This document shows positions 45,340 to 64,000 of a stretch of 64,000 nt of DNA, in pieces; position 1 is the stretch's first letter; every line of letters starts with the position of its first letter. A model generated the notes under the pieces. It made no database searches. It was not told where the DNA came from and saw nothing but the letters and a program-made list of their open reading frames with translations. Origin of the DNA: Escherichia phage phAPEC8; the sequence record NC_020079.1; one strand, 5' to 3'. The position numbers were made by a program, and so were the translations under genes.

Positions 45340-45618
45340 TTAAAATGGTTCGTTAGTCTCCATCATATATTCTGCTTCTAGTTCTTCCATATGCTTTCTA
45401 AATTGGAAAGCAATTTCTGCTACAGTTACATTTAAATCTTTTTCAAAAACTTCTGTAGAGCCTTCATAAAAACGAATACCGTCAATTAAAAGCCCTCCGT
45501 GGTAATCCCAATCACTTTCACGAGAAAGCGGGTTAGGCTCTTCATAATAGTAATCCACCTCCACGACTAAAGCTTTCCCGTTACGAGCGGTGTATTCAAA
45601 ATCAAAAGTGTTAATCAT
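45340..45618 (-). CDS. hypothetical protein
   Basis: 92-aa ORF between the primase-helicase and glycosyltransferase genes. Confidence 0.45.
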   Translation of the reverse strand: MINTFDFEYTARNGKALVVEVDYYYEEPNPLSRESDWDYHGGLLIDGIRFYEGSTEVFEKDLNVTVAEIAFQFRKHMEELEAEYMMETNEPF

Positions 45619-46562
45619 TATAGCTCCTCAAATAAAAGTCTACGACGCTCATTCAACACATCAATGTGATAATGAGTCCTGACATACTTAGCTAATGCTA
45701 ATCCTTTCTCCATGCAAACATCGGGAGCACTTAATAAGTATTCCGTAATATCTTTCCACTCGGAAGGTGTTTCAGCAAAGAATAACAAATCTTTAAACTC
45801 TTGTGTATGATAATTCTCACGAGGAGAACAGATCAAAGGTAAACCCTTAGCACCTGCCTCAAGAATTTTAAGATTGCTTTTTGCATTATTAAACACGTTA
45901 TCAATCAATGGCGCAAGACTGATTTGATGACCATCGTAAGATTCCATGTAGTTGGCATATGGTCTTACACCTTCATAAACACAAGTTGGTGCTACATTTT
46001 CTCTGATTACAGACCATTCACGACTACTTAAAACTTCAGAATCCCTACGAAAACCACATATTGTAAGATCTTTACCAAAATCGGGCAAGATAGCCAAGTC
46101 TTGTTTATGTGTTTCACTTCCAGCCCAGACTAATGGAGTTTTGGAGTAGCGATCACGGGTCAACACAAATTGACCTTCATCGTAAGGAAGTCCATTAGGG
46201 ATTATGTGCACATTATCATTGTATTGTGAAAGTTCAACTTGCAAAGCAGGTGTCGTAGTTGTAACGAGATCGCTGTGCTCTAAAAACCATTTTAAATGTT
46301 CACGAATACCTGATTCAAAAATACCTTCTAACATGTGTCCTTTTGGAATAACTAAAGAGTCATCCAAATCCATAACCATTTTAAAGCCTAGGTTTTTAAG
46401 GGCTAAAAAGCCCTCTTTACCTTTTGTTGGCACCCCGTTAAAAACGAAAACGTTGTGTTTAGGTTGTGAAGAGAACTGCCTTGAGTAAGGCAGCACTACT
46501 CTATGGAAATCGCAGACACTATAATTGATTCCGTTACGATTGTCAAGAATTATTTGTCCCAT
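45618..46562 (-). CDS. glycosyltransferase, GT-B fold (GT4-like), paralog 2
   Basis: 314 aa; shares extended identity with ORF 46570..47520 (e.g. FNNAKSNLKILEAGAKGLPLICS vs FNNCKSNLKILEAGAKGIPIVCS); K-x-LEAGA-x-G-x-P motif typical of retaining GT-B enzymes. Confidence 0.5.
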   Translation of the reverse strand: MGQIILDNRNGINYSVCDFHRVVLPYSRQFSSQPKHNVFVFNGVPTKGKEGFLALKNLGFKMVMDLDDSLVIPKGHMLEGIFESGIREHLKWFLEHSDLVTTTTPALQVELSQYNDNVHIIPNGLPYDEGQFVLTRDRYSKTPLVWAGSETHKQDLAILPDFGKDLTICGFRRDSEVLSSREWSVIRENVAPTCVYEGVRPYANYMESYDGHQISLAPLIDNVFNNAKSNLKILEAGAKGLPLICSPRENYHTQEFKDLLFFAETPSEWKDITEYLLSAPDVCMEKGLALAKYVRTHYHIDVLNERRRLLFEEL

Positions 46563-46569
46563 ACTTCAC

Positions 46570-47520
46570 CTACAAACTTTCAATAACCTGGCGTCGCAAC
46601 TCGTTTGCATCTGCCAGATTATAATGTGTTCGAACATGTTCAGCCAAGAACAAGCCACGATCTTCCCGATAGTTTGGATTGCGAAGAAGCTTAACAATTT
46701 CGTAATGCCATTCTGCTTTATTCTCTGCGTAAGCAACAGCGCGAGCATCTACAGGGTTAAAATAAGGTAATACCTTAGAACAAACAATTGGAATACCTTT
46801 TGCTCCAGCTTCCAGGATTTTGAGATTACTTTTACAATTATTAAAATCGTTATCTACCAAAGGAGCTATAGCAATAGCATGACTTTCGTAAACACTCATG
46901 TAATTATCTAAATCTTTTACAGCGGCTTTATATTTGGCATTTGGTAAATTTCTGCGAATCTTAATCCACTCTTGTCCTGTGATGCTTTGTGATGCTTCAT
47001 ATCCCGCAATAGTAAGAAGTTCATCATCGAAAGTATTAGAGACTAGTCGTAAATCGGGTTCGTGACTAGCACCGCCAGCCCATACAACAGGGGTACCGGA
47101 TGAACGATCATTTGACAAAGTGAATTGTCCGCTATCAAAAGGAAGTGCATTTCGGATCACAACAACATTCCTATTTAAGTGGCGGATCTTATATGCCAAA
47201 TATTCCGTAGTCACAATAACCACATCAGCAAGCTTAACCATAGCTACAATAGCATGAGTGTTTGACTCGTATAGACTTGCTAAATAATGTTCTGGATTGA
47301 GTTGGTAGAAATCATCTAAATCTACAACAATCTTAACACCTTGACGTTTCAAAGATAAAACGTATTCTGCACCTTTAGAGTGGATACGGTTAAACACAAC
47401 AACATCTTTCTTAGGTTGAATATTATTGTTGTTAAAGGGCATAACAATACGATGATAGTCACAACCGCTATGAGGTTTTGCATCAATTTTTAGTTTAGAC
47501 CATTTTTTTTTATTTGACAT
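46570..47520 (-). CDS. glycosyltransferase, GT-B fold (GT4-like), paralog 1
   Basis: 316 aa; tandem paralog of ORF 45618..46562 with the same conserved blocks (CDYHR, VDLDD, TPVVWAGG, KILEAGAKG). Confidence 0.5.
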   Translation of the reverse strand: MSNKKKWSKLKIDAKPHSGCDYHRIVMPFNNNNIQPKKDVVVFNRIHSKGAEYVLSLKRQGVKIVVDLDDFYQLNPEHYLASLYESNTHAIVAMVKLADVVIVTTEYLAYKIRHLNRNVVVIRNALPFDSGQFTLSNDRSSGTPVVWAGGASHEPDLRLVSNTFDDELLTIAGYEASQSITGQEWIKIRRNLPNAKYKAAVKDLDNYMSVYESHAIAIAPLVDNDFNNCKSNLKILEAGAKGIPIVCSKVLPYFNPVDARAVAYAENKAEWHYEIVKLLRNPNYREDRGLFLAEHVRTHYNLADANELRRQVIESL

Positions 47521-48193
47521 GTGCTAGTGCCTCCTCATAGGAAATTCGGATTTTCCCATTTTTAATATCCTCTAAAGATGCTTTATATTCTTCCCAGTTA
47601 ATCCCAATAGCAGCTTCTTTCTCTTCTTTTGTCAGATTAGCAAAAGGCATAGGATTGTTTCCAAAAACATCGTCTGGGTGGATATAAGCCATGATACGAA
47701 GTGGACAAGGTGTTGCCTGAATACCATGATTCAAACCAGCAGCTTGCAAACGGTGTCCCCATTCAGCATCTTCAAAACCATAACCGTGAGTGTAAGGACG
47801 GAAATAACCCATCTTCTCAACAACGGCACGAGAATACATTGCAAATTGACACATTGCAAGTTCCCAGAGAATAACTTCTCCTTTGCTTCCAACAACTTTA
47901 TCTTTGAAATACTCCGGCATACCAAAGAAATCCCATCCTCCAGAGACAGCTTGATCTACAAAGTATGTTTCCCATCCCTCCATGACTGGGTAGCAATCGT
48001 CGTCAAAAATAAACCAATAATCATAACCTTCTTCATAAAACTGGTGCATAAGTTCATTCCTGGCATAAGCTACACCTTTACGATCTGGATCGTTGAATAC
48101 TCGAAAATCTGCACGTGGATCTGTTACAAGGTAGTCTTTAAGTGGACGGACACCTACAGTGATAACACCCACTCCGATTTTAATATTTTCCAT
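47510..48193 (-). CDS. glycosyltransferase, GT-A fold-like (DxD motif)
   Basis: 227 aa; N-terminal IGVGVITVGVRP and acidic FIFDDDCYP motif resembling the DXD nucleotide-sugar-binding motif. Confidence 0.45.
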   Translation of the reverse strand: MENIKIGVGVITVGVRPLKDYLVTDPRADFRVFNDPDRKGVAYARNELMHQFYEEGYDYWFIFDDDCYPVMEGWETYFVDQAVSGGWDFFGMPEYFKDKVVGSKGEVILWELAMCQFAMYSRAVVEKMGYFRPYTHGYGFEDAEWGHRLQAAGLNHGIQATPCPLRIMAYIHPDDVFGNNPMPFANLTKEEKEAAIGINWEEYKASLEDIKNGKIRISYEEALAHVK

Positions 48194-48201
48194 TTTCTCT
48201 C

Positions 48202-48765
48202 CTAAATAGTTTTACTGTGATCATGACAGTGTAATAAATGATGTATAGACCGTTGAGGATTTGTTTGACCTAATCTGTAAATGTGAAACAGATACATTCC
48301 CCGCATCAATCCTAACCTCTTTCCTTTTTCATGTAAAGTGCGAGAGAAAATTAAGTCGAATTGGATAGATTTTTCTTCGAAAGGAATTTCATTCCACAAT
48401 GATTTTCTAAAAAGCAAAAAGAAACCTGCCAGAGGTGTTCCGAAAGGAACTTCTTCAACATTTACTTTATGATATTCTCTTGCAATCTTAGCATATTCTA
48501 TATGGTTTAGAATATCGGGATCATCGTTAATTTGGTTAGAGAAAAGCTGATAACCACTACCTAACCTGTTACAAGTTGCACCTATTACATCAAAAGGCGG
48601 GTTTGACATAACAAGCTCTTCAAGCATAGATGGTTGATCAGGTAGGAGGAACATTGTATCGGTATCTCTTAAACACACCCAACTATCATCTGGAAGAACG
48701 GCAATGGCTTCATTGATAGCCTTGCCGATATTTCCTGTCAGATAGGGAGTAATATAATAAATCAT
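48202..48765 (-). CDS. glycosyltransferase-like protein (GT-A-like N-terminus)
   Basis: 187 aa; N-terminal IYYITPYLTGNIGKAINEAI and CLRDTDTMF (DxD-like); weaker assignment than the three upstream GT genes. Confidence 0.35.
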   Translation of the reverse strand: MIYYITPYLTGNIGKAINEAIAVLPDDSWVCLRDTDTMFLLPDQPSMLEELVMSNPPFDVIGATCNRLGSGYQLFSNQINDDPDILNHIEYAKIAREYHKVNVEEVPFGTPLAGFFLLFRKSLWNEIPFEEKSIQFDLIFSRTLHEKGKRLGLMRGMYLFHIYRLGQTNPQRSIHHLLHCHDHSKTI

Positions 48766-48973: not shown

Positions 48974-49181
48974 TTACAACCTCCTTAATAGCTACTGCAC
49001 AGTTCTTACAAATACATTGACCTTTGTTCTTAGAAATTTCAATGTAAGGTTCATTTTCGTTTTCTCCGCGTCGTGAGTCGTATATTACTGTATTGAAGCA
49101 GACAACGCAAATGTTTTTAATAACGACATATTTTTGCACTTTCTGTTTAGTGCGAAAATTGACTTCAATGACTTCTCCCAT
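48951..49181 (-). CDS. small Cys-rich zinc-ribbon-like protein
   Basis: Track ORF 48951..49229 trimmed to the internal ATG (MGEVIEVNF...) that abuts the upstream gene; contains CVVCF...CICKNC. Confidence 0.4.
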   Translation of the reverse strand: MGEVIEVNFRTKQKVQKYVVIKNICVVCFNTVIYDSRRGENENEPYIEISKNKGQCICKNCAVAIKEVVNENAWDQ

Positions 49182-49465
49182 CAATGAATCTCCCCTAAAA
49201 TGTTGTTTTGAGACATTACTGCGGAGCATTCTACAGCATCATGAGTCCTTGCAAAACGCTCCCACAACACAGCATCTACTTTAAGAACCATACAAGGATA
49301 AATACTGTCGTTGATCATGTCAATGCTATATTTATCTACATCCTTTTCATCTTCCATAAACAAAGTAGCGTATGCTTCTAAATGCTTACGGGTGTAGTAT
49401 ACATCCTCTTCAGTAAGACCGACAACCAGGTAACTTGCTACAACAACAGTATTATCTTCTTGCAT
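49181..49465 (-). CDS. hypothetical protein
   Basis: Track ORF 49181..49528 trimmed to the internal ATG (MQEDNTVVV...) immediately after the stop of the hydrolase gene. Confidence 0.4.
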   Translation of the reverse strand: MQEDNTVVVASYLVVGLTEEDVYYTRKHLEAYATLFMEDEKDVDKYSIDMINDSIYPCMVLKVDAVLWERFARTHDAVECSAVMSQNNILGEIH

Positions 49466-49466
49466 T

Positions 49467-49988
49467 TTAACTCCCCTTTGGTAGATAGAAACCATGCACT
49501 TTATCTCGATAAACAAGACGCATATCACGTTCCCAGTGTGTCCTTATATTCCGTTTCTTGAAGTATAGAGCACCTTTAGTAACATCTAAAACAGACCGCA
49601 ATTCAGGAAAATGTTTCTCTAAATAAAGTAAACGCTCCGCTATTGCTTTTGCTTCCTGCCACTTATCTTTCTCTGTTACGTTAAAAGTTTTCGCATATGA
49701 GAATTGCCCTTTCTGGAACAAGACTCCTCTGACTGTGTTAGGGAAGTAGGTATCATTTCTTCTGTTGATTACCACATTCCCAACGGCATTCATTCCTTTT
49801 TTACCCAGACCGCGACCTTCTGCGTAAATTGCACAAGCTAATAGAATTTTATCATTATATTGCTTTGTACATTTGTGAACTACTTTAGCGGTTTTTACGT
49901 TTGCAGCTTCGGCTTTCGCCACAACAGGTGTAAATGTAAAAGCAGTTAAGGATAGTAACGCAACTGTTACAAAGTTTTTTATCAGCAA
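49467..49988 (-). CDS. secreted cell wall hydrolase, SleB/Hydrolase_2-like (endolysin candidate)
   Basis: 173 aa; N-terminal signal peptide (LLSLTAFTFTPVVAKAEA) and core ACAIYAEGRGLGKKGMNAVGNVVINRRN...FPNTVRGVLFQKGQFS matching the SleB-type signature; TTG start with SD AGGAGG and its own promoter. Confidence 0.55.
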   Translation of the reverse strand: MLIKNFVTVALLSLTAFTFTPVVAKAEAANVKTAKVVHKCTKQYNDKILLACAIYAEGRGLGKKGMNAVGNVVINRRNDTYFPNTVRGVLFQKGQFSYAKTFNVTEKDKWQEAKAIAERLLYLEKHFPELRSVLDVTKGALYFKKRNIRTHWERDMRLVYRDKVHGFYLPKGS

Positions 49989-50020
49989 ATTTTGCCTCCT
50001 TTTTAAGTTAACGAACTTCT

Positions 50021-50049
50021 AGTATAACACGATAGAGGCTTTATTGCAA
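50021..50049 (-). promoter_or_regulatory. sigma70-like promoter on minus strand (TTGCAA-N17-TATACT)
   Basis: Minus-strand TTGCAA (50044-50049), 17-nt spacer, TATACT (50021-50026), 32 nt upstream of the TTG start at 49988. Confidence 0.45.
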
Positions 50050-50069
50050 GAGGGGGATTTCTCCCCCTC
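50050..50069 (-). terminator. stem-loop downstream of TerD-like gene (possible terminator, weak U-tract)
   Basis: Perfect stem GAGGGGGA/TCCCCCTC with TTTC loop; minus-strand downstream is UUGCAAUAAA. Confidence 0.3.
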
Positions 50070-50087: not shown

Positions 50088-50690
50088 TTATGGACATTCA
50101 TACCATTCTTTTTTACCACCAAAGGCCATCACCACATCGCAAATATCCAGACCAGCTTTACCTACACCATATGCTTTCAGCTTCCATTCCCCATCTTCAC
50201 GAACCAGCGAAGCCACGTGGCAGATTGTGTTGCCAGCTACTTCAGGAGCCAGGAAGTCAAAATCCAGAATTTCCACATTGCGCTCGGAGTCGAAGATTTT
50301 AAGCATACCTTCAGAAGCATGACCAAAACGTTTCAGACCTGTATCATCATCAATGGTCAGAACAAAGGCAATCTCTTGTGCATCAGGAGAGATTTTAGCC
50401 AGAGTAATATCAATCTGCTCCATGCTGCCAGTTCCATCACGAACATCGTCACCAGCGAAGGTAGAACGTTCAGGATCAAACTTGTTAGCATAGCAAACCA
50501 GATGACGTGCAGACAGCATTTCAGGATTGCCAGCGGCATTATGACGACAAACCAGTGCACTTACATCCAGATCCAGTTTAGAATCAGATTTCCAAGAGAA
50601 TTCCAGGCGCAGTTCTTTCAGAGCCGGAGCAACTTTCTTCAGGGAAATTTTTTCGCTAGAACCTTTTTTCAGGGAAATTTTATCAGTCAT
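50088..50690 (-). CDS. TerD-family protein (tellurium-resistance TerD/TerZ/TerE-like)
   Basis: 200 aa; alignable block-by-block with E. coli TerD as recalled: ISLKKG..ISLKK, LDLDVSAL, AGDDVRDGTGS, IAFVLTIDD, FG...G, GEWKLKAYGVGKAGL. Confidence 0.8.
   Translation of the reverse strand: MTDKISLKKGSSEKISLKKVAPALKELRLEFSWKSDSKLDLDVSALVCRHNAAGNPEMLSARHLVCYANKFDPERSTFAGDDVRDGTGSMEQIDITLAKISPDAQEIAFVLTIDDDTGLKRFGHASEGMLKIFDSERNVEILDFDFLAPEVAGNTICHVASLVREDGEWKLKAYGVGKAGLDICDVVMAFGGKKEWYECP
50638..50681 (-). repeat. 14-bp direct repeat (TTCAGGGAAATTTT x2, 30-bp period) at the 5' end of the TerD-like gene
   Basis: Two identical copies at 50638-50651 and 50668-50681 encode the duplicated KISLKK peptide at the TerD N-terminus; a similar sequence opens the vWA gene. 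Confidence 0.5.
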
Positions 50691-50705
50691 CTTTTGTCTC
50701 CTCTA

Positions 50706-50975
50706 TTATTTAAGTGTAATACCAGTTACAGTCAATTCTACTTCCAAAAGCTTAGATGTGTTTTGGATTGATACTAATTGTGCATGATGGTTTAGTTCTA
50801 CAGCAGAATAATCATTTTCCCCATCATCTACTTTTAAATAAACAATGATTTCACTAAGGTCTAAACCATTTTCGTCAAATGCATTTTCATAGACGAAAGT
50901 ATCTCCTACATCCAAATCTTTAATGGTAAGGCATCGTTTATTTACTTTTTGCTCATCAATTTCGAAGTTTAACAC
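50706..50975 (-). CDS. small protein, paralog B of a duplicated family preceding Ter-type genes
   Basis: 89 aa; GTG start with SD AGGAGG overlapping the upstream gene end; paralogous to ORF 51997..52275 (shared DLDVG.TF...Y, ...VE(V/L)(D/E)L(E/T)VT(N/G)ITLK). Confidence 0.45.
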   Translation of the reverse strand: MLNFEIDEQKVNKRCLTIKDLDVGDTFVYENAFDENGLDLSEIIVYLKVDDGENDYSAVELNHHAQLVSIQNTSKLLEVELTVTGITLK

Positions 50976-51204
50976 TTCTTCCTCCTAATGTTATCTCCGG
51001 TTTGTATATACGAAGAATTATAGCATTTTCATTTTCTTTGTCAACCCATTCTTCATAATCGGGCCATACATGAATCTCTACTCTACTTACAATATCTTCC
51101 ATCCGCACAATCCCAATGAAATACTCTTTGAGACTGCGCATAATGAAAGCTTCTCTCTCGCGCCAATAATTTTCTACGACTTGAGAGGCAAGCTCGTCGA
51201 TCAT
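50956..51204 (-). CDS. hypothetical small protein
   Basis: 82-aa ORF between the vWA and paralog B genes; start overlaps the vWA stop. Confidence 0.4.
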   Translation of the reverse strand: MIDELASQVVENYWREREAFIMRSLKEYFIGIVRMEDIVSRVEIHVWPDYEEWVDKENENAIILRIYKPEITLGGRSVKLRN

Positions 51205-51995
51205 TTTTTAGCACCTACTTTAACAACCCACTCTCCGAACTCTTCAGATAAGAGTTTGTCATAAAGCTCTGAATCTGTCAAGTCTAAATCTTTAATGCCA
51301 ATGAAACCAACATTATCATAAGCATTTGCCAGTTCTTTCAGGAAGCCAAACTTCTCATTACCAACGCCAACCATGAACCAATAAATAGGTTTATTCTTAT
51401 TCTCTTCGATAAGACGACGAACAGCACTAGGATCACCATTCTCACCATCCGTTTGGAAGAATACAACACCAGGGGTAACGTCAGCACCTGGTTCAGATAC
51501 AGCTACAACCTTTTCACGCTCTACAGATACTGTTTCAGTTTTACCAAGCAGACGATTAAAGAAGCCTTTCTTTGGAGCCTCCTCTTGTACCACTTGTTTA
51601 GTGGTAATATATTTGGTAACAGTGCCAAAATACTCGTCGTAGATATCTGCCATTACAGGGGCGTAGTTTGTTCCACCTCCGATACGAACATTACGCATAC
51701 ATTTACCAACATAATCATCGTAAACGTCTGCTGTTGCTGGGGTAAGCTCTTGAGAACTCGTATTAAAGGCCCACATATCAATTTGTTCATTATCGTCGAA
51801 CAGCATACCAAAAGGAAGCAGTTTACCTACAAAATCACTCACTACCCCACTAGCATATAGACCATGCATACTACCAGAAATATCTAGAGCACATGCTACA
51901 CGAAGAACAATCTTACCTTCATTCAGGTTCTTATTCTTTTTCAGAGAGAAAGCAAGGTTTTCTTGACGTTTTTTCAGGCTGATTTTCTCGGACAT
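51201..51995 (-). CDS. von Willebrand factor A domain protein (TerY-like context) with TerD-like N-terminal peptide
   Basis: 264 aa; MIDAS motif DISGSM, GGTNYAP and TDGENGD; N-terminus MSEKISLKK...FSLKK echoes the TerD N-terminal repeat. Confidence 0.65.
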   Translation of the reverse strand: MSEKISLKKRQENLAFSLKKNKNLNEGKIVLRVACALDISGSMHGLYASGVVSDFVGKLLPFGMLFDDNEQIDMWAFNTSSQELTPATADVYDDYVGKCMRNVRIGGGTNYAPVMADIYDEYFGTVTKYITTKQVVQEEAPKKGFFNRLLGKTETVSVEREKVVAVSEPGADVTPGVVFFQTDGENGDPSAVRRLIEENKNKPIYWFMVGVGNEKFGFLKELANAYDNVGFIGIKDLDLTDSELYDKLLSEEFGEWVVKVGAKK

Positions 51996-51996
51996 A

Positions 51997-52275
51997 TTAT
52001 TTCTCCTTCTTAAGTGTAATGTTGGTAACTTCTAAATCTACTTCCACCATCTTTGTATCTGGTGGGATGCAATGAGTATAGCCTCGTTGTGCTAGTGATC
52101 CATTAATACAGATCGCACTGTTTGTGGAATTTTTAATGAACACCAAGTTACGGTAGGTATCCAACCCTGCGTCTTCATAGGCATCATAATACATGAATGT
52201 GGCCCCTACGTCAAGATCTTCGAAAGCAATAGGTAAATCCTGACTTTTTTCTTCTTGAATATTGAATCTAAACAC
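51997..52275 (-). CDS. small protein, paralog A of a duplicated family preceding Ter-type genes
   Basis: Track ORF 51997..52341 trimmed to a GTG with SD GAGGAGG that overlaps the upstream gene end, the same arrangement as paralog B. Confidence 0.4.
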   Translation of the reverse strand: MFRFNIQEEKSQDLPIAFEDLDVGATFMYYDAYEDAGLDTYRNLVFIKNSTNSAICINGSLAQRGYTHCIPPDTKMVEVDLEVTNITLKKEK

Positions 52276-52831
52276 GCATACCTCCTCTACCAATTTTGAA
52301 GCCCAAATCGTAAGCTTCCTTAGTGATCTTTTGTAACTCACTTATAGGAAGTGTTACAAGAGGATCATCTTCTTCAATTTCCATCTTGTCATCTTCTGTT
52401 TCAATGAGAGTATTATGCACTTTGTGATAAGGGTTGTCAACACGTTTAAACTTATTCTTTTCTGTGCTGAAAAAACAATCTGGATCTTCTTCACCATCAC
52501 CCCAACCTTGGTTAGGATCTCCGTCAGATTGTTCTGTAGGGATTTCACCTGTAAAGTACTCTTCCAGCACCATAGCGATACCGTCCCTTGGATTTGAGGA
52601 ATGCATCAAATCACAAACCTTACTCCAATCCATAGCCCATTCAAATCGTTCACGAACACCATTTTCATCCTCCTTTCCAGAGAAAACACAACCATAACTA
52701 TCATAGTTGCCATACATCTCTTCAATAACAACACCGTCCTTCAAAAGAAAGAGATAACAAGGTGATCCGTCGAAAGAAGTAGAAAGGGCAGCTTTGCCCG
52801 ATTCTTTGCACAAAAAGCTAAAACAACCCAT
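52268..52831 (-). CDS. hypothetical acidic protein
   Basis: 187 aa; Asp/Glu-rich central region (EQSDGDPNQGWGDGEEDPDCFF, ETEDDKMEIEEDDP). Confidence 0.45.
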   Translation of the reverse strand: MGCFSFLCKESGKAALSTSFDGSPCYLFLLKDGVVIEEMYGNYDSYGCVFSGKEDENGVRERFEWAMDWSKVCDLMHSSNPRDGIAMVLEEYFTGEIPTEQSDGDPNQGWGDGEEDPDCFFSTEKNKFKRVDNPYHKVHNTLIETEDDKMEIEEDDPLVTLPISELQKITKEAYDLGFKIGRGGMRV

Positions 52832-53229
52832 TACAAACCCTCCTTCAGATTATCAAGAGCTACAGTGGTTTCACAAAATTCTCCATAAGCTTTATGATGT
52901 TCCAGAAAAGCTTCGGGTCCACCCCAGTCATTATCTTGTGTATTCCAGCCATCAATAAAAGCATCTTCAATGATTGTGATCAGTTCCTGTCGAGTCAACG
53001 TAATGGTATCAGGTTTCTGCGTAGTTTCCACACGGAACCCTGGTTCTTCATAAAAACCTTTAGTTACAATGGATTCTAACTCTTCTGCATCACAGAGGAA
53101 GTAGCCACAAAGATAACACCCACCGTCATCATCTTTCATTACTTCATAAACTTCACCACTTGCTAACTTGATGAAAAGAGTAGGGTCTGTTACTGTAAGT
53201 TTTAAAAGAATACCTGTTGGATTATACAT
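52831..53229 (-). CDS. hypothetical protein
   Basis: 132-aa ORF; ATG overlaps the 3' end of the small acidic ORF upstream. Confidence 0.45.
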   Translation of the reverse strand: MYNPTGILLKLTVTDPTLFIKLASGEVYEVMKDDDGGCYLCGYFLCDAEELESIVTKGFYEEPGFRVETTQKPDTITLTRQELITIIEDAFIDGWNTQDNDWGGPEAFLEHHKAYGEFCETTVALDNLKEGL

Positions 53230-53395
53230 CTTCTTCCTCCTCTAAGATATGGAACCCGTAATTACAATAATCCTGAAAGGTTTCGTGTGCAAGATCTTCT
53301 ATATCTTCTTGAGACATATCATCTTCAATTTCGATATCTACAACCTCATTGCATCCACACCAAGCCGTTTCAATATTCACTCGTAATATTTTCAT
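53222..53395 (-). CDS. small highly acidic protein (57 aa, below ORF-track cutoff)
   Basis: Hand-translated ORF MKILRVNIETAWCGCNEVVDIEIEDDMSQEDIEDLAHETFQDYCNYGFHILEEEEDV; preceded by GGAGGAGGAGGAG; its ATG shares a nucleotide with the upstream stop (TAATG). Confidence 0.4.
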   Translation of the reverse strand: MKILRVNIETAWCGCNEVVDIEIEDDMSQEDIEDLAHETFQDYCNYGFHILEEEEDV

Positions 53396-53595
53396 TACTC
53401 CTCCTCCTCCTCATTGAAGTCAATATCTGCAAGGAGTTCGAATTTACGGAAGTTACGACAACCTTCATAAATATAACAATCACGACAAACTGCTAGAACA
53501 CTTGGGGGATATATGCCTCCCATCGGTGCGAATCGTTTTTCGTCATCATAACGGACACCAATGTCTTCATCAATTATATAGATACGGATTCTCAT
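53395..53595 (-). CDS. small acidic Cys-containing protein
   Basis: 66 aa ending in NEEEEE; start overlaps the upstream gene stop. Confidence 0.4.
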   Translation of the reverse strand: MRIRIYIIDEDIGVRYDDEKRFAPMGGIYPPSVLAVCRDCYIYEGCRNFRKFELLADIDFNEEEEE

Positions 53596-54704
53596 TTACC
53601 AAGCCCTCGTTTCACAGCAGCTACCATCCCGTCTTCCAGAGATTGAACTTCATTAATATAATCAACACGAGCAGCACGGGCTTCCGTATTGATGCGGTTA
53701 GTTTCTTCCAACATCTTAACCAAGTTTTCCTGATCGTGACGCAGAGTTTCAATATCCAACACTTGACGGTTAGCCAGTGCTGCTGCTTCGATCTGATTCT
53801 GTGTGGCAAGATCGCTACCCAGTTTAATTGCCAGGTTAAATTCATCAAGAACGTTATTCTGCGTCTCTGCTGCTTTCATTTGACGTAAGCTCTCGATATA
53901 CATTGAGAAGTTAGCAGAGTAAGCAGGAATAACATTATTTACTATGTTACGCGCAGATCGCATTAAGCTTGCAGAAACTTTTTGCATACCTTGTACACGC
54001 GGTCCCATTTGGACACACAGTAGGCGCAATGCTTTTAAATCTGCAATACGAATCTCCAGAAGATCCAAAGTATCTCGGATCACTTGTCGCTGTTCTACTG
54101 CATCTTCTGGAAGAGCAGCCAAAGCTTGTTCTTCTTTTTCATAGGTTGCTGTTAGAAGCTGCATATCTCGGTTCAAACTTGCAGCATATTGTCCAATAGC
54201 TTGATGTAGCTTTTCAAGATATACCAAGGAATCTTCTTCTTTGCGAATATCCATTTGAAGGTTCTTTACCAACTCTTCAATACGGTTATTAACATTATCA
54301 AACTCCCCAAACAGATCTTCTTTCATACCCATAACTTTTTTAATGAGTTTAGTAATACCCTTGCTTTGTTTAATAGAGTTTGGATCAAGTTGTTTTGCCT
54401 GTTTAATCAAAGCTGTGAGTCGTTCACTCATCTGATCGCCTTGATTACTACGTTGATGTTTTAATACCTCGGCATTCAAGGAACGCAAGGTTGTTCCTGC
54501 CTCTGCCCCAATCTCTTCAATCTCTTGTCGGGTCATAGAAGGCAAAACTGGAACTTCTTGCGGTGCCGCTGGTGCATAAACAGGACTGGCATCTAACACG
54601 CTTGGAGCGAATACAGATTTACTTGCATCGGTTGTTGCAGCAAATACGCTCATTTCAGGCTTCTTCTGACCACCAGTAGCTGCTTTTAAAAATGGACTTG
54701 TCAT
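53592..54704 (-). CDS. coiled-coil protein, TelA-like (toxic anion resistance family) candidate
   Basis: 370 aa, predominantly helical/coiled-coil; TelA assignment rests on size, composition and proximity to TerD/TerC/vWA genes, not on a verified signature. Confidence 0.35.
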   Translation of the reverse strand: MTSPFLKAATGGQKKPEMSVFAATTDASKSVFAPSVLDASPVYAPAAPQEVPVLPSMTRQEIEEIGAEAGTTLRSLNAEVLKHQRSNQGDQMSERLTALIKQAKQLDPNSIKQSKGITKLIKKVMGMKEDLFGEFDNVNNRIEELVKNLQMDIRKEEDSLVYLEKLHQAIGQYAASLNRDMQLLTATYEKEEQALAALPEDAVEQRQVIRDTLDLLEIRIADLKALRLLCVQMGPRVQGMQKVSASLMRSARNIVNNVIPAYSANFSMYIESLRQMKAAETQNNVLDEFNLAIKLGSDLATQNQIEAAALANRQVLDIETLRHDQENLVKMLEETNRINTEARAARVDYINEVQSLEDGMVAAVKRGLGK

Positions 54705-55902: not shown

Positions 55903-56355
55903 TTAACGTCGCTTGCTACGAGATGAACTCTTTTTACTTAAAGGGCTATTGTAAGATTTACGAGTTGTATAGCTACTATTTGTTTTAAAAGTTTGTCTCG
56001 GCTTTTCATAAGTTTTTATCTCTTGTTTAGGCTTACCATAAAAATTAGTTTTCGGTTTAGGTGTATTATAATGCTTATTAATAATCGTTCTGTTATCGTT
56101 ATAATCCCCACTGCTACGATTACTACCACCACTCATCATATGCCCTAACAACATACCTGTAGCAAACTCACCAACACCGCTACTACTAGAACCGCCACCA
56201 TTGTTGATAATAGTTGTATCTCCGTCAGATCCTTGTTGAGCGTATTGTTGAGGAGGTTGTTGGTATTGTGCAGGATTTGTTTCATCCTCGCAAGCTGTTA
56301 AAAAGATACAACCAATTAAAATCAGGGCTAGTTTTTTCATATTTGCTTTCCTCAT
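55903..56355 (-). CDS. lipoprotein (signal peptide + lipobox LTAC), Gly/Ser/Gln-rich
   Basis: Track ORF 55903..56415 trimmed to MRKANMKKLALILIGCIFLTAC; classic n-h-c signal region with lipobox Cys; alternative start at 56340. Confidence 0.5.
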   Translation of the reverse strand: MRKANMKKLALILIGCIFLTACEDETNPAQYQQPPQQYAQQGSDGDTTIINNGGGSSSSGVGEFATGMLLGHMMSGGSNRSSGDYNDNRTIINKHYNTPKPKTNFYGKPKQEIKTYEKPRQTFKTNSSYTTRKSYNSPLSKKSSSRSKRR

Positions 56356-56527
56356 TTTGACTATTAATACATCTGTGTTTGAAATCTCCAGAGAAGCAAT
56401 AAAGTTGCTCTCCATCTCGGTATAAACTCACTTTACTGCCGTTGATTACGCTTGTCAATACAAAAATTACAACAAACAACCCTATTGCAAAACAAATATT
56501 TTCAAACACAACCAACAAGTATTTCAT
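56282..56527 (-). CDS. small membrane protein overlapping the lipoprotein gene start
   Basis: 81-aa ORF with N-terminal TM helix (LLVVFENICFAIGLFVVIFVL); its 3' part overlaps the lipoprotein gene in another frame, so true extent is uncertain. Confidence 0.3.
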   Translation of the reverse strand: MKYLLVVFENICFAIGLFVVIFVLTSVINGSKVSLYRDGEQLYCFSGDFKHRCINSQNEESKYEKTSPDFNWLYLFNSLRG

Positions 56528-56916: not shown

Positions 56917-57891
56917 TTAAACAGCAGCTTCTTCTTTTTCAGGGAAGATAAAGCTTGCAATAACACCAAGAGCTAATGTGCCTAGAACAATCATCAGACT
57001 TACGTTAGGGGAAATATCATGCGGGAGGAATGACCACTTGGCATGAAGTGTTTCACCGAACGGGTGATACATAAGTTTAGCACCGACAAATACCAGAACC
57101 ACAGCAACAGCTTTCTCTAAGTGAACCAGATATTTCACAGCCACACTTAACACAAAGAAAAGTGCACGTAAACCAAGAACAGCCATCAGCATTGCAGAAT
57201 AAACTAGCAGAGGTTCTTGTGTCACACCGATCACAGCCGGAACTGAATCAAAAGAGAAGACAATATCTGTAAGCTCAATAACAAACACACAAAGAAGAGC
57301 AGGAGTTGCATATTTAATACCATTCTTAATGGTGATGAACTTTTCACCATCTAGTGCATTGTGCACAGGCAGAACTTTACCTACTAAACGAACAGCCCAA
57401 TGCTTAGAGTAATCAATATCCTCTTCTTCGTCACCACCTTTGATGATAGCCACGGCAGACCAAGCTACAATCAAACCGAACAACACTTGGACCGACCAAT
57501 GAAGGTTAAACAAAGCGGTCCCTGCTGCAACAAAAATACCTCGGAAGACAATGGCTCCTGCAATCCCCCAAAGTAAAATCTTATGTTGGAGATGTGTGCT
57601 CTTAATTCCAAAGCTTGCAAAAATTGCCATGAACACCATCAAGTTATCTACAGAAAGACTCTTTTCCAACACATAGCCACTTAGGAAAAGCGCGGCAAAC
57701 TCTTTACCATGTTCTACCCAAATGAATGCGTAATATCCTAAAGCTAAAGCAATCCAAAAAACAGACCAAAGCAAAGCAGATTTAATTCCAATTTCTTTAT
57801 TCTCTTTATGACCAAAGAAATCGATACCAATAGACAATGCTAAAATACCAACCAAAACAACTACATCAATAATGGGGAAACCAAGTTGCAT
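56917..57891 (-). CDS. TerC-family integral membrane protein
   Basis: 324 aa, multi-pass hydrophobic; contains EKSLSVDNLMVF and ELTDIVFSFDSVPAVIG, matching the two conserved TerC blocks (SxDN and ExxDxxFxxDSxPA). Confidence 0.6.
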   Translation of the reverse strand: MQLGFPIIDVVVLVGILALSIGIDFFGHKENKEIGIKSALLWSVFWIALALGYYAFIWVEHGKEFAALFLSGYVLEKSLSVDNLMVFMAIFASFGIKSTHLQHKILLWGIAGAIVFRGIFVAAGTALFNLHWSVQVLFGLIVAWSAVAIIKGGDEEEDIDYSKHWAVRLVGKVLPVHNALDGEKFITIKNGIKYATPALLCVFVIELTDIVFSFDSVPAVIGVTQEPLLVYSAMLMAVLGLRALFFVLSVAVKYLVHLEKAVAVVLVFVGAKLMYHPFGETLHAKWSFLPHDISPNVSLMIVLGTLALGVIASFIFPEKEEAAV

Positions 57892-57972: not shown

Positions 57973-58194
57973 TTATTTTGAAGAACTTGAGGAAAAGATC
58001 CCACGTAGTACAGCCATGATAAATGCCACACACACCACAGTCCAGAAGGTGACAGGAACAGTGATATCTGTGTGACCCATCATTTCAACAACGTAGTTAT
58101 AAGCCAGCAGCAGAAGCCATGCTGGAATCATACTAATCAGAAAAGCAATAACAAACACAATAATCACTGCAAGAATACCTGCTAAAACGCCCAT
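57973..58194 (-). CDS. small hydrophobic membrane protein (3 predicted TM segments)
   Basis: 73 aa, almost entirely hydrophobic (ILAVIIVFVIAFLISMI, WLLLLAYNYVV, VTFWTVVCVAFIMAVL). Confidence 0.45.
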   Translation of the reverse strand: MGVLAGILAVIIVFVIAFLISMIPAWLLLLAYNYVVEMMGHTDITVPVTFWTVVCVAFIMAVLRGIFSSSSSK

Positions 58195-63379: not shown

Positions 63380-64000
63380 TTATCGTTTGGAGAGGAATTG
63401 TCTTCCCATGATCTTACCGTTCTTTACAGCGGTCCCATCGTGTCCATTATAATCCCAAGTTCCATCAATGTTACGCAAGAAGCTATCACGAACAGTGTAG
63501 GCTTTACCGTTCTCTACTTTACTTTCTTCAACAATGATTGCCATAACAAGCTTATTTTCAATTTCGGTAGTAACCGATTCTTTAATACCCTCTGTAACTT
63601 CACGATCATATTGGATATAAACTCGCTCCTCGGTTACTTGCACATCAACCACATTTTTAAATGTGTATGTCTGTTGTGTAGTGTAGAGGACACGAACGAC
63701 ACTCTTCTTACCTACCGGAGGCTTCTTACGAGGCTTACGGTAACGTGGTTTAGGGTTGTTAGTTGGAAGCCAACCAACAATATCCCGATCATATCCAACA
63801 TGACCCCAAGTGAAATGCGTAGCCGATCCACTATCCGTAGTTCCGTCACGAAAGAGAACTTCTACGTGACCACCACAAGGGCGGTGTCCACCATTATTAT
63901 AGTTGTATTTTGCCGTGCGCGGGAGAATGAAGTATTCTTTAATCGCCCACTCTTCCAGATTGTCGATATTCCAAGTGAATACTGTTCCCTTAGCAACATC
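63380..64000 (-). CDS. partial ORF (N-terminus beyond window), possible M15-like peptidoglycan peptidase domain
   Basis: Track ORF 63380..63652 is the 3' end of a frame that stays open to nt 64000; in-window part includes NYNNGGHRPCGGHVEV, loosely resembling the GGHVE ending of L-Ala-D-Glu peptidase endolysins. Confidence 0.3.
   Translation of the reverse strand, partial: DVAKGTVFTWNIDNLEEWAIKEYFILPRTAKYNYNNGGHRPCGGHVEVLFRDGTTDSGSATHFTWGHVGYDRDIVGWLPTNNPKPRYRKPRKKPPVGKKSVVRVLYTTQQTYTFKNVVDVQVTEERVYIQYDREVTEGIKESVTTEIENKLVMAIIVEESKVENGKAYTVRDSFLRNIDGTWDYNGHDGTAVKNGKIMGRQFLSKR

What the first reader, a model, noticed from the sequence alone, without database searches (positions are those of the whole stretch)
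49467..50049. Secreted SleB-type cell-wall hydrolase with its own promoter and TTG start
Seen in sequence: signal peptide plus SleB/Hydrolase_2 core, a consensus-like promoter (TTGCAA-N17-TATACT) and a TTG start behind AGGAGG. It is located in the early/metabolic arm, not in an obvious lysis cassette; no adjacent holin was recognised. A possible second lysin-like domain lies at the window edge (63380-64000). The lysis strategy is therefore unresolved.
Basis: partly seen in the sequence, partly recalled or inferred. Interest (0 to 1): 0.4.

Follow-up and report, generated by a model that had tools for sequence, protein, structure and literature searches.

The report
Exported SleB-fold cell-wall hydrolase of phAPEC8-like phage
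This is a real, well-conserved gene of a phAPEC8-like E. coli phage. It encodes a small cell-wall-cutting enzyme that is sent to the periplasm by a signal peptide. It is already annotated in over a hundred published phage genomes and is probably a second, accessory lysis enzyme beside a T4-type lysozyme encoded outside this window.

Summary
The core observation holds. Window 49467-49988 (minus strand) encodes a 173-aa protein with an N-terminal Sec-type signal peptide. Its core is a Hydrolase_2 (PF07486) domain with the SleB catalytic fold and an invariant Glu57. The TTG start sits 6 nt after AGGAGG. The TTGCAA-17-TGt-TATACT promoter and a GC-rich hairpin just upstream are conserved in six lineages, down to 59% protein identity.

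The suggested second lysin at 63380-64000 is not there. That stretch matches phrog_15930 and no Pfam domain.

The window is 99% identical to published Phapecoctavirus genomes, where this gene is annotated as "cell wall hydrolase SleB" or "endolysin". Papers on sister groups already describe the same picture: two muralytic genes, a signal peptide on the SleB-like one, and no adjacent holin.

The "unresolved" lysis strategy is mostly an effect of the window limits. All about 130 related genomes also carry a soluble lysozyme 47% identical to T4 e. The relative examined in full (EF1-1) has Rz/Rz1-type spanins just before the terminase gene. Both lie outside the window. A holin is still unidentified.

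The most likely role is a holin-independent, exported auxiliary lysin. This is ordinary and already known, so interest is low.

The parts
49467..49988 (-). CDS of the 173-aa pre-protein (stop TAA at 49469-49467; TTG start at 49988-49986)
   Evidence: ORF list and sequence. 99% identical to annotated CDSs in more than 60 Phapecoctavirus genomes.
49911..49988 (-). Predicted Sec (type I) signal peptide, residues 1-26. Most likely cleavage is AKA|E after Ala26; VVA|K after Ala24 and AEA|A after Ala28 are alternatives.
   Evidence: n/h/c architecture with a Pro at -6 and AxA motifs in all 18 close homologues. Sequence-unrelated signal peptides occur on the T5, slur16 and POP18 homologues. No SignalP run was possible.
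49470..49910 (-). Mature 147-aa domain (about 17.0 kDa, pI about 9.9) with a Hydrolase_2 / SleB catalytic fold
   Evidence: Pfam PF07486 over residues 62-168. AlphaFold2 pLDDT 92.9. Foldseek top hits are 4f55/4fet SleB catalytic domains, probability 1.0 and target-normalised TM 0.72-0.76. Physical parameters.
49818..49820 (-). Codon GAA for Glu57, the predicted catalytic glutamate (Y55-A56-E57)
   Evidence: Aligns with the Glu of the YGESRGE motif in SleB structure 4f55. Invariant in 93/93 diverse family members.
49995..50000 (-). Shine-Dalgarno AGGAGG, 6 nt upstream of the TTG
   Evidence: Sequence. AGGAGGC is invariant in six lineages.
50021..50049 (-). Sigma70-type promoter: -35 TTGCAA (50049-50044), 17-nt spacer, TG (50029-50028), -10 TATACT (50026-50021)
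   Evidence: Consensus scan, 9/12 plus TG. TTGC, the spacing, TGn and TAnnnT are conserved in six lineages while other positions vary. Activity is untested.
50050..50069 (-). GC-rich hairpin GAGGGGGA-GAAA-UCCCCCUC abutting the -35. It probably closes the upstream vWA/TerD transcription unit, as a terminator or an RNA 3'-end stabiliser, but it has no U-tract in this genome.
   Evidence: -17 kcal/mol, z=-3.2 to -3.8. A hairpin at the same place in all six lineages has different loops (GAAA, UAA, UUCG) and compensated stem changes. One lineage (L012) has a U-tract.
49181..49465 (-). Downstream 94-aa gene of unknown function (phrog_16257). Its ATG lies 1 nt after the hydrolase stop (TAAAATG), so it is probably co-transcribed and translationally coupled.
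   Evidence: Sequence. Annotated CDS in EF1-1. PHROG hit. No TM segment.

Best explanation
The gene encodes a small peptidoglycan hydrolase that the phage exports to the periplasm without a holin.

Proposed steps:
1. Host sigma70 RNA polymerase starts at a conserved extended -10 promoter placed directly after a hairpin that ends the upstream vWA/TerD unit. The sequence and its conservation are shown; promoter activity is inferred.
2. Translation starts at a conserved TTG behind a strong AGGAGG. This probably keeps the protein level low. This step is inferred.
3. The 26-residue signal peptide takes the protein through the Sec system, and signal peptidase I cuts it off at AKA|E. This is inferred from sequence features conserved across unrelated lineages.
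4. The mature 17-kDa basic domain has the SleB/CwlJ catalytic fold with Glu57 as catalytic acid, probably stabilised by a Cys40-Cys52 disulfide. It cleaves the glycan strands of the sacculus, probably as a lytic transglycosylase as in SleB. The fold and the Glu are shown; the chemistry is by homology.
5. It acts as an accessory lysin. The main lysis machinery is a soluble lysozyme of the T4 e type plus Rz/Rz1-type spanins encoded outside the window. The exported enzyme weakens the wall from the periplasmic side and adds a second bond specificity once the membrane is de-energised at lysis. This role is inferred.
For: Identity:
- Pfam Hydrolase_2, 64 bits; phrog_938 endolysin.
- Sequence hits to SleB structures 4f55/4fet; confident model and fold match.
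- Glu57 and Arg76 invariant in 93/93 sequences.

Export:
- Signal peptides with AxA sites in all 18 close homologues.
- Sequence-unrelated signal peptides on the T5, Vequintavirus and Pectobacterium-phage homologues.
- SAR-like N-termini on Pseudomonas-phage homologues.
- 118 of the 150 nearest cluster representatives have a signal-peptide-like N-terminus.
- Two mutually exclusive conserved Cys pairs, as expected for periplasmic disulfides.

Expression signals:
- Promoter, hairpin, RBS and TTG are conserved in six lineages.

Accessory role:
- A lysozyme 47% identical to T4 e is present in the same number of related genomes: 63 records at >=95% identity plus 68 at 60-90% for the lysozyme, against 63 plus 67 for this gene.
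- Spanins lie before TerL in EF1-1.
- T5-like phages combine a holin-linked M15 endolysin with a distant SleB-like gene.
- Vequintavirinae do the same, and their SleB-like protein has a signal peptide, was toxic when expressed in E. coli, and is not named among the virion proteins the text lists from mass spectrometry.
- The PA5oct homologue was not detected in virions.
Against: - No experiment on this protein or any close homologue was found. Muralytic activity, bond specificity, export and cleavage are all inferred.
- SleB itself needs muramic delta-lactam, which E. coli peptidoglycan lacks.
- A sigma70 promoter in the replication/metabolism arm suggests early or middle expression, which is odd for a lysis enzyme that needs no holin.
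- No holin or pinholin lies nearby.
- Conservation of the hydrolase alongside a full canonical endolysin in three phage lineages could equally mean a non-redundant function unrelated to lysis.
Confidence: 0.55

Rival explanations
1. It is the phage's principal endolysin. It would be a secreted (signal-peptide) endolysin that accumulates in the periplasm and is unleashed when a still unidentified pinholin-like protein collapses the membrane potential. The T4 e-like lysozyme would then be secondary.
For: - PHROG and many GenBank records call it an endolysin.
- In Pseudomonas phages (Nankokuvirus, PA5oct) the Hydrolase_2 protein with a SAR-like N-terminus is the annotated endolysin.
- In Certrevirus a 2-TM holin candidate overlaps the 3' end of the SleB-like gene.
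Against: - Every related genome also keeps a full-length soluble lysozyme 47% identical to T4 e, whose T4 prototype is the proven endolysin.
- The Certrevirus holin candidate has no homologue here, and no TM protein is adjacent.
- In T5-like phages the endolysin gene next to the holin is a different one, of the M15 peptidase type.
Confidence: 0.15
2. It is not a lysis enzyme. It would be an early or middle periplasmic factor that remodels or nicks the host sacculus during infection, for example to change envelope properties, exclude superinfecting phages or release muropeptides. That would explain why it is kept beside a canonical endolysin.
For: - Sigma70 promoter in the replication/metabolism arm.
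- Conserved synteny with TerD/vWA-TerF genes upstream and small unknown genes downstream, followed by glycosyltransferases in most lineages.
- The Vequintavirus homologue sits just upstream of rIIA/rIIB.
- The pairing of a soluble endolysin with a secreted Hydrolase_2 recurs in three lineages.
- The weak TTG or GTG starts suggest a low, tolerated dose.
Against: - There are no expression-timing data for any relative.
- Position in the genome does not indicate timing. The T4 e-like lysozyme gene also lies in the minus-strand metabolic arm of EF1-1, beside PhoH and thioredoxin genes.
- Expression of the CB7 homologue was toxic in E. coli, which fits a lytic enzyme.
- No specific non-lytic mechanism has any direct support.
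Confidence: 0.2
3. It is a virion-associated lysin used for cell-wall penetration at infection.
Against: - A cleavable Sec signal peptide would send the protein out of the cytoplasm, where virions assemble.
- The gene lies outside the structural module.
- The CB7 homologue is not among the virion proteins the paper's text names from mass spectrometry, and the PA5oct homologue was not detected in virions.
Confidence: 0.03
4. The 'own promoter' is not functional. The gene would be expressed only by read-through from the upstream TerD/vWA operon, and the conserved bases would serve another purpose.
For: - The match is only 9/12, and such matches are common in this AT-rich DNA: 47 observed against 32 expected in 12 kb.
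- Non-promoter bases in the spacer (GCCTCT) are also conserved.
- The hairpin lacks a U-tract here, so read-through is likely.
- The Vequintavirus homologue has no room for a promoter between its terminator and its RBS.
Against: The positions kept in six lineages are exactly the critical ones (-35 TTG, 17-nt spacing, TG at -15/-14, -10 T1/A2/T6). The non-critical -10 positions vary: TATACT, TACAAT, TAGAAT, TAAAAT.
Confidence: 0.2

Closest known systems
The same gene in published Phapecoctavirus and Justusliebigvirus genomes (phAPEC8 'putative cell wall hydrolase SleB'; EF1-1 gp196 'endolysin'; BME3 'hydrolase homologous to SleB')
   Same: 68-99% identical protein, with the same length, neighbours, signal peptide, promoter and TTG start. 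The literature already notes two 'endolysins' and no TM neighbours.
   Different: Nothing of substance. The window is another isolate of the same genus.
SleB-like proteins of Vequintavirinae (CB7_83, CR3_087, slur16 gp061)
   Same: About 35% identical over the full length. They have a signal peptide, a single Hydrolase_2 domain and the same Cys pair. They lie outside any lysis cassette, their spanins sit next to the terminase, and each genome has a second cytoplasmic endolysin.
   Different: Certreviruses have an overlapping 2-TM holin candidate downstream, which is absent here. The slur16 gene starts with GTG directly after a canonical terminator, has no promoter of its own, and precedes rIIA/rIIB.
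T5-like phage 'SleB putative cell wall hydrolase' (149 aa)
   Same: About 36% identical catalytic domain and a cleavable signal peptide (SQA|S). It lies in the early region, far from the holin-endolysin pair.
   Different: It has an ATG start coupled to the upstream gene, uses the other conserved Cys pair, and the partner endolysin is an M15 peptidase rather than a T4 e-like lysozyme.
Bacillus SleB catalytic domain (PDB 4f55, 4fet), a germination-specific lytic transglycosylase
   Same: Same fold (Foldseek probability 1.0) and the same catalytic Glu motif.
   Different: There is no N-terminal PG_binding_1 domain. The SleB equivalog model scores far below its cutoff. The host has no spores and no muramic delta-lactam substrate, and identity is only about 25%.
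Exported phage endolysins: the signal-peptide endolysin Lys44 of Oenococcus phage fOg44 and SAR endolysins (P1 Lyz, phage 21 R). This comparison rests on my own knowledge, not on a tool result.
   Same: Export through Sec is holin-independent, so the enzyme reaches the wall before lysis and must be restrained until the membrane is de-energised.
   Different: The catalytic fold is different. Here a cleavable AxA signal peptide is more likely than a releasable anchor. No pinholin was identified, and a canonical soluble endolysin coexists.

Membership tests
Pfam Hydrolase_2 (PF07486), the SleB/CwlJ catalytic-domain family | Profile score above the curated gathering threshold | tested here: met
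   64.1 bits against a cutoff of 27, E=1.9e-17, profile positions 3-100 of 100.
Pfam Hydrolase_2 (PF07486), the SleB/CwlJ catalytic-domain family | SleB catalytic-domain fold | tested here: met
   AlphaFold2 model with pLDDT 92.9. The only significant PDB matches are 4f55 and 4fet, probability 1.0 and TM 0.72-0.76 normalised on the target.
Pfam Hydrolase_2 (PF07486), the SleB/CwlJ catalytic-domain family | Conserved catalytic glutamate | tested here: met
   Glu57 aligns with the Glu of YGESRGE in 4f55. It is invariant in 93/93 sequences.
Pfam Hydrolase_2 (PF07486), the SleB/CwlJ catalytic-domain family | Peptidoglycan-cleaving (lytic transglycosylase) activity | not testable with these tools
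   This needs a zymogram and muropeptide analysis. The only indirect hint is that the CB7 homologue was toxic on expression.
SleB proper (spore cortex-lytic enzyme, TIGR02869 equivalog) | Equivalog model score above its cutoff | tested here: not met
   51.7 bits against a cutoff of 236.5; only residues 37-117 match.
SleB proper (spore cortex-lytic enzyme, TIGR02869 equivalog) | N-terminal PG_binding_1 domain preceding the catalytic domain | tested here: not met
   Pfam finds only Hydrolase_2. Residues 1-26 are a signal peptide and residues 27-61 a short linker.
Canonical holin-dependent endolysin in a lysis cassette | Adjacent holin and/or spanin genes | tested here: not met
   No TM protein lies among the neighbouring genes. 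The nearest small TM ORFs are 6-8 kb away (56282-56527 and 57973-58194). The spanins lie before TerL, outside the window.
Canonical holin-dependent endolysin in a lysis cassette | Soluble cytoplasmic protein without an export signal | tested here: not met
   The N-terminal n/h/c signal with AxA is conserved in all homologues.
SAR (signal-anchor-release) endolysin | N-terminal weakly hydrophobic Gly/Ala/Ser/Thr-rich TM domain that is not cleaved | tested here: inconclusive
   The h-region is 42% G/A/S/T with mean Kyte-Doolittle hydropathy 1.9, and it is unusually well conserved. But every homologue has a Pro at about -6 and small-x-small cleavage motifs, which favours cleavage. The Pseudomonas-phage homologues do look SAR-like. 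Resolving this needs N-terminal mapping.
SAR (signal-anchor-release) endolysin | Partner pinholin | tested here: not met
   None is adjacent. There is no homologue of the Certrevirus 2-TM candidate. Small TM proteins elsewhere hit only PHROGs of unknown function.
Secreted (type I signal peptide) phage lysin | Cleavable Sec signal peptide: positive n-region, hydrophobic core, AxA at -3/-1 | tested here: met
   This rests on a heuristic analysis only: K4, a 14-residue core, P21 and A24-K25-A26|E27. The same architecture, with unrelated sequence, is found in the T5, slur16 and POP18 homologues. SignalP was not available, and one paper reports no signal peptides.
Virion-associated lysin | Presence in purified virions, or a gene in the structural module | tested here: not met
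   The gene lies in the replication/metabolism arm. The PA5oct homologue was not detected in virions, and the CB7 homologue is not named among the virion proteins that paper's text lists. No proteome of this phage was examined.

The most novel reading that the evidence does not exclude
The Sec-exported Hydrolase_2 protein is not an endolysin at all. It would belong to a conserved class of early or middle periplasmic 'wall-conditioning' factors. Three separate lineages of large virulent coliphages (T5-like, Vequintavirinae, Stephanstirmvirinae) keep such a protein beside a canonical cytoplasmic endolysin, at deliberately low dose (TTG or GTG starts, a position just after a hairpin or terminator). 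Its non-redundant role would be in envelope remodelling or superinfection control rather than in final lysis.
Probability: 0.2. Interest if true: 0.45.

Novelty: already known. Interest (0 to 1): 0.15.

Why it matters
For genome annotation it matters little. The gene, its domain and its odd position are already recorded in many GenBank entries and several papers.

The one point of wider interest is a small open question that the literature states itself. T5-like, rV5-like and phAPEC8-like phages all keep a signal-peptide-bearing SleB-fold hydrolase in addition to a canonical endolysin, and it is not known why or which of the two enzymes drives lysis.

The conserved promoter, hairpin and TTG arrangement shown here gives a concrete handle for expression and knockout experiments. 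The mature 17-kDa basic enzyme is also a possible enzybiotic candidate, like other Hydrolase_2 lysins.

Tried and rejected
- Window-edge 'second lysin' (63380-64000). Pfam finds nothing, and PHROGs gives phrog_15930, labelled 'ribonucleotide reductase'. Rejected.
- Adjacent holin. A hydropathy scan of all ORFs of the relative EF1-1 found no TM protein next to the gene. Ten small TM proteins elsewhere hit only PHROGs of unknown function, or 'membrane protein'.
- Homologue of the Certrevirus 2-TM holin candidate that overlaps the SleB-like gene. tblastn against the window and the relatives found nothing better than E=1.5.
- T4-type late promoter TATAAATA. There are 6 sites in the window against 4.8 expected, and none lies upstream of this gene.
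- Canonical intrinsic terminator. The scan did not call the 50050-50069 hairpin because it lacks a U-tract. I kept it as a conserved hairpin of uncertain terminator efficiency.
- SleB orthology. Rejected on the equivalog score.
- Lipoprotein or Tat signal. There is no Cys or lipobox and no twin arginine in residues 1-30.
- Expression-timing data. A literature search found no transcriptome for Stephanstirmvirinae or Vequintavirinae.
- Biochemical work on a Gram-negative phage Hydrolase_2 lysin. [quoted passage not shown]
- T4 e-like lysozyme or spanins inside the window. Both are absent.

Full report
**What the window is.** A 4-kb stretch around the finding is 98.7-99.1% identical to more than 60 published Escherichia phages of the genus Phapecoctavirus. 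These are phAPEC8-like myoviruses of about 150 kb in the subfamily Stephanstirmvirinae. In those records the gene under the finding is annotated as 'putative cell wall hydrolase', 'sleB: spore cortex-lytic enzyme' or 'endolysin'. The window runs from the 3' end of the large terminase gene, through the structural module on the plus strand (to about 37 kb), into the minus-strand replication and nucleotide-metabolism arm.

**Checking the observation.**

- The ORF is on the minus strand at 49467-49988 and encodes 173 aa. TTG (49988-49986) is the first possible start after the upstream in-frame stop. The next in-frame Met is residue 66, inside the catalytic domain.
- AGGAGG lies at 50000-49995, 6 nt before the TTG.
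- Taken alone, a 9/12 match is weak evidence in this AT-rich DNA. There are 47 such sites in 12 kb against 32 expected.

I therefore aligned the upstream region from six lineages whose proteins are as little as 59% identical: the window, Justusliebigvirus outra, phiWec181 and three metagenomic contigs. The following are invariant:

- the -35 TTGC and the 17-nt spacing
- the TG at -15/-14
- positions 1, 2 and 6 of the -10 hexamer
- AGGAGGC and the TTG start

The non-critical -10 positions vary: TATACT, TACAAT, TAGAAT, TAAAAT. This is the pattern expected of a working extended -10 sigma70 promoter, although its activity is untested.

Directly upstream of the -35 lies a GC-rich hairpin at 50050-50069 (-17 kcal/mol, z about -3.5). 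It is kept in all six lineages, with different loops (GAAA, UAA, UUCG) and compensated stem changes. In this genome it lacks a U-tract, so its efficiency as a terminator is uncertain.

The one part of the observation that fails is the 'possible second lysin-like domain' at 63380-64000. That stretch is the C-terminal part of a 449-aa protein. It hits no Pfam family and only phrog_15930 (E=1e-101), and it sits next to nrdD.

**What the protein is.**

- Pfam gives Hydrolase_2 (PF07486) at 64.1 bits against a cutoff of 27. PHROGs gives phrog_938, 'endolysin'.
- The only related solved structures by sequence are the SleB catalytic domains 4f55 and 4fet.
- An AlphaFold2 model built on 93 diverse homologues is confident (pLDDT 92.9). 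Its only significant PDB matches are those same SleB domains, with Foldseek probability 1.0 and TM 0.72-0.76 on the target.
- Glu57 aligns with the Glu of the YGESRGE motif of SleB and is invariant in 93/93 sequences, as is Arg76.
- It is not SleB proper. The NCBIfam SleB equivalog scores 51.7 bits against a cutoff of 236.5, and there is no PG_binding_1 domain.

**Export.** Residues 1-26 form a textbook type I signal peptide: MLIKN, then a 14-residue hydrophobic core, then TPVVAKA followed by E.

- The same architecture, with a Pro near -6 and small-x-small motifs, is present in all 18 close homologues.
- More tellingly, distant homologues carry signal peptides of unrelated sequence: T5 (MKAALLLVAALTFSFSSQA|S), Vequintavirus slur16 (…LSLPVVA|A) and Pectobacterium phage POP18.
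- Pseudomonas-phage homologues have SAR-like N-termini.
- Of the 150 nearest cluster representatives in a 1.8-billion-protein library, 118 have a signal-peptide-like N-terminus.
- The family carries two mutually exclusive conserved cysteine pairs. Cys40+Cys52 occurs in 25/93 sequences, including this protein. An alternative pair occurs in about 53/93. This is what is expected for periplasmic disulfides.

I could not run SignalP. One paper on these phages states that no signal peptides were found. The paper on phage CB7 reports a signal peptide on the Vequintavirinae homologue.

**Context and lysis strategy.** The gene's neighbours on the same strand are as follows.

- Upstream lie vWA-TerF-like and TerD-like genes.
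- Downstream is a 94-aa gene of unknown function whose ATG lies 1 nt after the hydrolase stop, then two more small genes and four glycosyltransferases.
- The upstream TerD/vWA genes and the small downstream genes recur in all the divergent contigs that extend far enough. Glycosyltransferases follow in most lineages but not in L013, where a primase/helicase follows.
- None of the neighbours has a transmembrane segment.

- The close relative EF1-1 encodes a soluble 166-aa lysozyme (PF00959). It is 47% identical to T4 e over its full length.
- It also encodes an i-spanin/o-spanin pair immediately before the large terminase gene.
- The lysozyme occurs in the same number of related genomes as the hydrolase: 63 records at >=95% identity plus 68 at 60-90%, against 63 plus 67.
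- Neither the lysozyme nor the spanins lie in the window.
- A holin is still not identified. Small TM proteins exist (for example window 56282-56527 and 57973-58194), but they hit only families of unknown function.
- The 2-TM holin candidate that overlaps the SleB-like gene in Certreviruses has no homologue here.

**What is already published.**

- A genome announcement for a Phapecoctavirus lists 'two lytic proteins' with PF00959 and PF07486 domains.
- The paper on the Justusliebigvirus phage BME3 says the phage encodes two endolysins, one homologous to SleB in the replication module. It adds that their neighbours lack TM domains, and that 61- and 81-residue class II holin-like proteins lie elsewhere.
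- The CB7 paper reports that SleB-like proteins occur in all Vequintavirinae genera, have a signal peptide and were toxic on expression in E. coli. CB7_83 is not among the virion proteins its text names, and the spanins sit next to the terminase.
- T5-like phages have an M15 endolysin next to the holin and a distant SleB-like gene. The authors note that it is not known which enzyme is mainly used.
- Hydrolase_2 is recognised as a common catalytic domain of lysins from phages of Gram-negative hosts.

**Most likely mechanism.** I take the protein to be a holin-independent, Sec-exported accessory lysin.

1. It is transcribed by host RNA polymerase from its own promoter.
2. It is translated at a low level from the conserved TTG.
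3. It is exported and cleaved.
4. It is then active on the glycan strands through Glu57, probably as a lytic transglycosylase.
5. It supplements the T4 e-type lysozyme and the spanins at lysis.

The fold, the catalytic residue, the export signal and the expression signals rest on sequence, structure prediction and conservation. The chemistry, the processing, the timing and the role are inferred.

The main rivals are these:

- It is the principal, secreted endolysin. The Pseudomonas-phage and Certrevirus contexts favour this. The universal co-occurrence of a T4 e homologue argues against it.
- It has an early, non-lytic role in conditioning the cell wall. The promoter type, the synteny and the recurrent pairing with a canonical endolysin favour this. 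It has no direct support.
- A virion role is very unlikely, given the signal peptide and the mass-spectrometry data on homologues.

**Verdict.** The feature is real and correctly located, and its core description is right. However, it is an ordinary gene that is already annotated and discussed. The only residual interest is the untested division of labour between the exported Hydrolase_2 enzyme and the canonical endolysin in these phage lineages.

Noticed in passing
window 50088-54704 and 56917-57891 (minus strand): The phage carries a tellurite-resistance-like gene set: a TerD-like protein (50088-50690), a vWA-TerF-like protein (51201-51995), a 370-aa 'tellurite resistance' protein (53592-54704) and a 324-aa multi-pass membrane protein (56917-57891, phrog_7180). 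The vWA-TerF/TerD genes lie upstream of the hydrolase in every divergent contig that extends that far.
   Followed up: partly
window 51017-51044 (minus strand): A perfect sigma70 consensus, TTGACA-16-TATAAT with an extended -10 TG (12/12), lies inside the 3' part of the 82-aa gene at 50956-51204, upstream of the 89-aa gene at 50706-50975. Further 11/12 sites lie at 52440-52412 and 46546-46518, so this arm is rich in strong host-type promoters.
   Followed up: no
window 63380-64000 (runs off the window end), minus strand: This is the C-terminal part of a 449-aa protein next to nrdD. Annotation pipelines label it 'ribonucleotide reductase' through phrog_15930, but it has no Pfam domain at all. 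The label looks like guilt by association.
   Followed up: partly
window 45618-48765 (minus strand): Four consecutive glycosyltransferase genes lie downstream of the hydrolase operon. The relative EF1-1 also carries a dTDP-rhamnose pathway elsewhere (its gp93-96), which suggests phage-directed glycan synthesis or modification.
   Followed up: no
window 56282-56527 and 57973-58194 (minus strand): These are small membrane proteins: 81 aa with one N-terminal TM segment, and 73 aa with at least two TM segments. They are the best holin candidates inside the window. The 81-residue size matches a class II holin-like protein mentioned for phage BME3. Both hit only PHROGs of unknown function.
   Followed up: partly
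window 55903-56415 (minus strand): This ORF has an internal start giving MKKLALILIGCIFLTAC…, a lipoprotein-type signal with an LTAC lipobox, followed by a low-complexity Ser/Gly/Asn-rich tail. It is a possible phage lipoprotein.
   Followed up: no
L003 13735-14079 (EF1-1 record 63735-64079), outside the window: The o-spanin of EF1-1 appears to be annotated with too short an N-terminus. Starting at record position 63735 gives MRIQRIMQKLILAVCLALPLMMTGC…, a proper lipoprotein signal, and overlaps the i-spanin gene.
   Followed up: partly
L005 3940-4000 (Vequintavirus slur16): The slur16 homologue starts with GTG only about 20 nt after a canonical terminator (CCCCGC-TTCG-GCGGGG followed by a T-run) and sits directly upstream of rIIA/rIIB. 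Weak starts and a position just after a terminator or hairpin recur for this toxic enzyme.
   Followed up: partly
alignment A3 (family-wide): Small Hydrolase_2 proteins carry one of two mutually exclusive conserved cysteine pairs. These correspond to positions 40+52 or 49+87 of this protein. This points to alternative disulfides in an exported enzyme family.
   Followed up: partly
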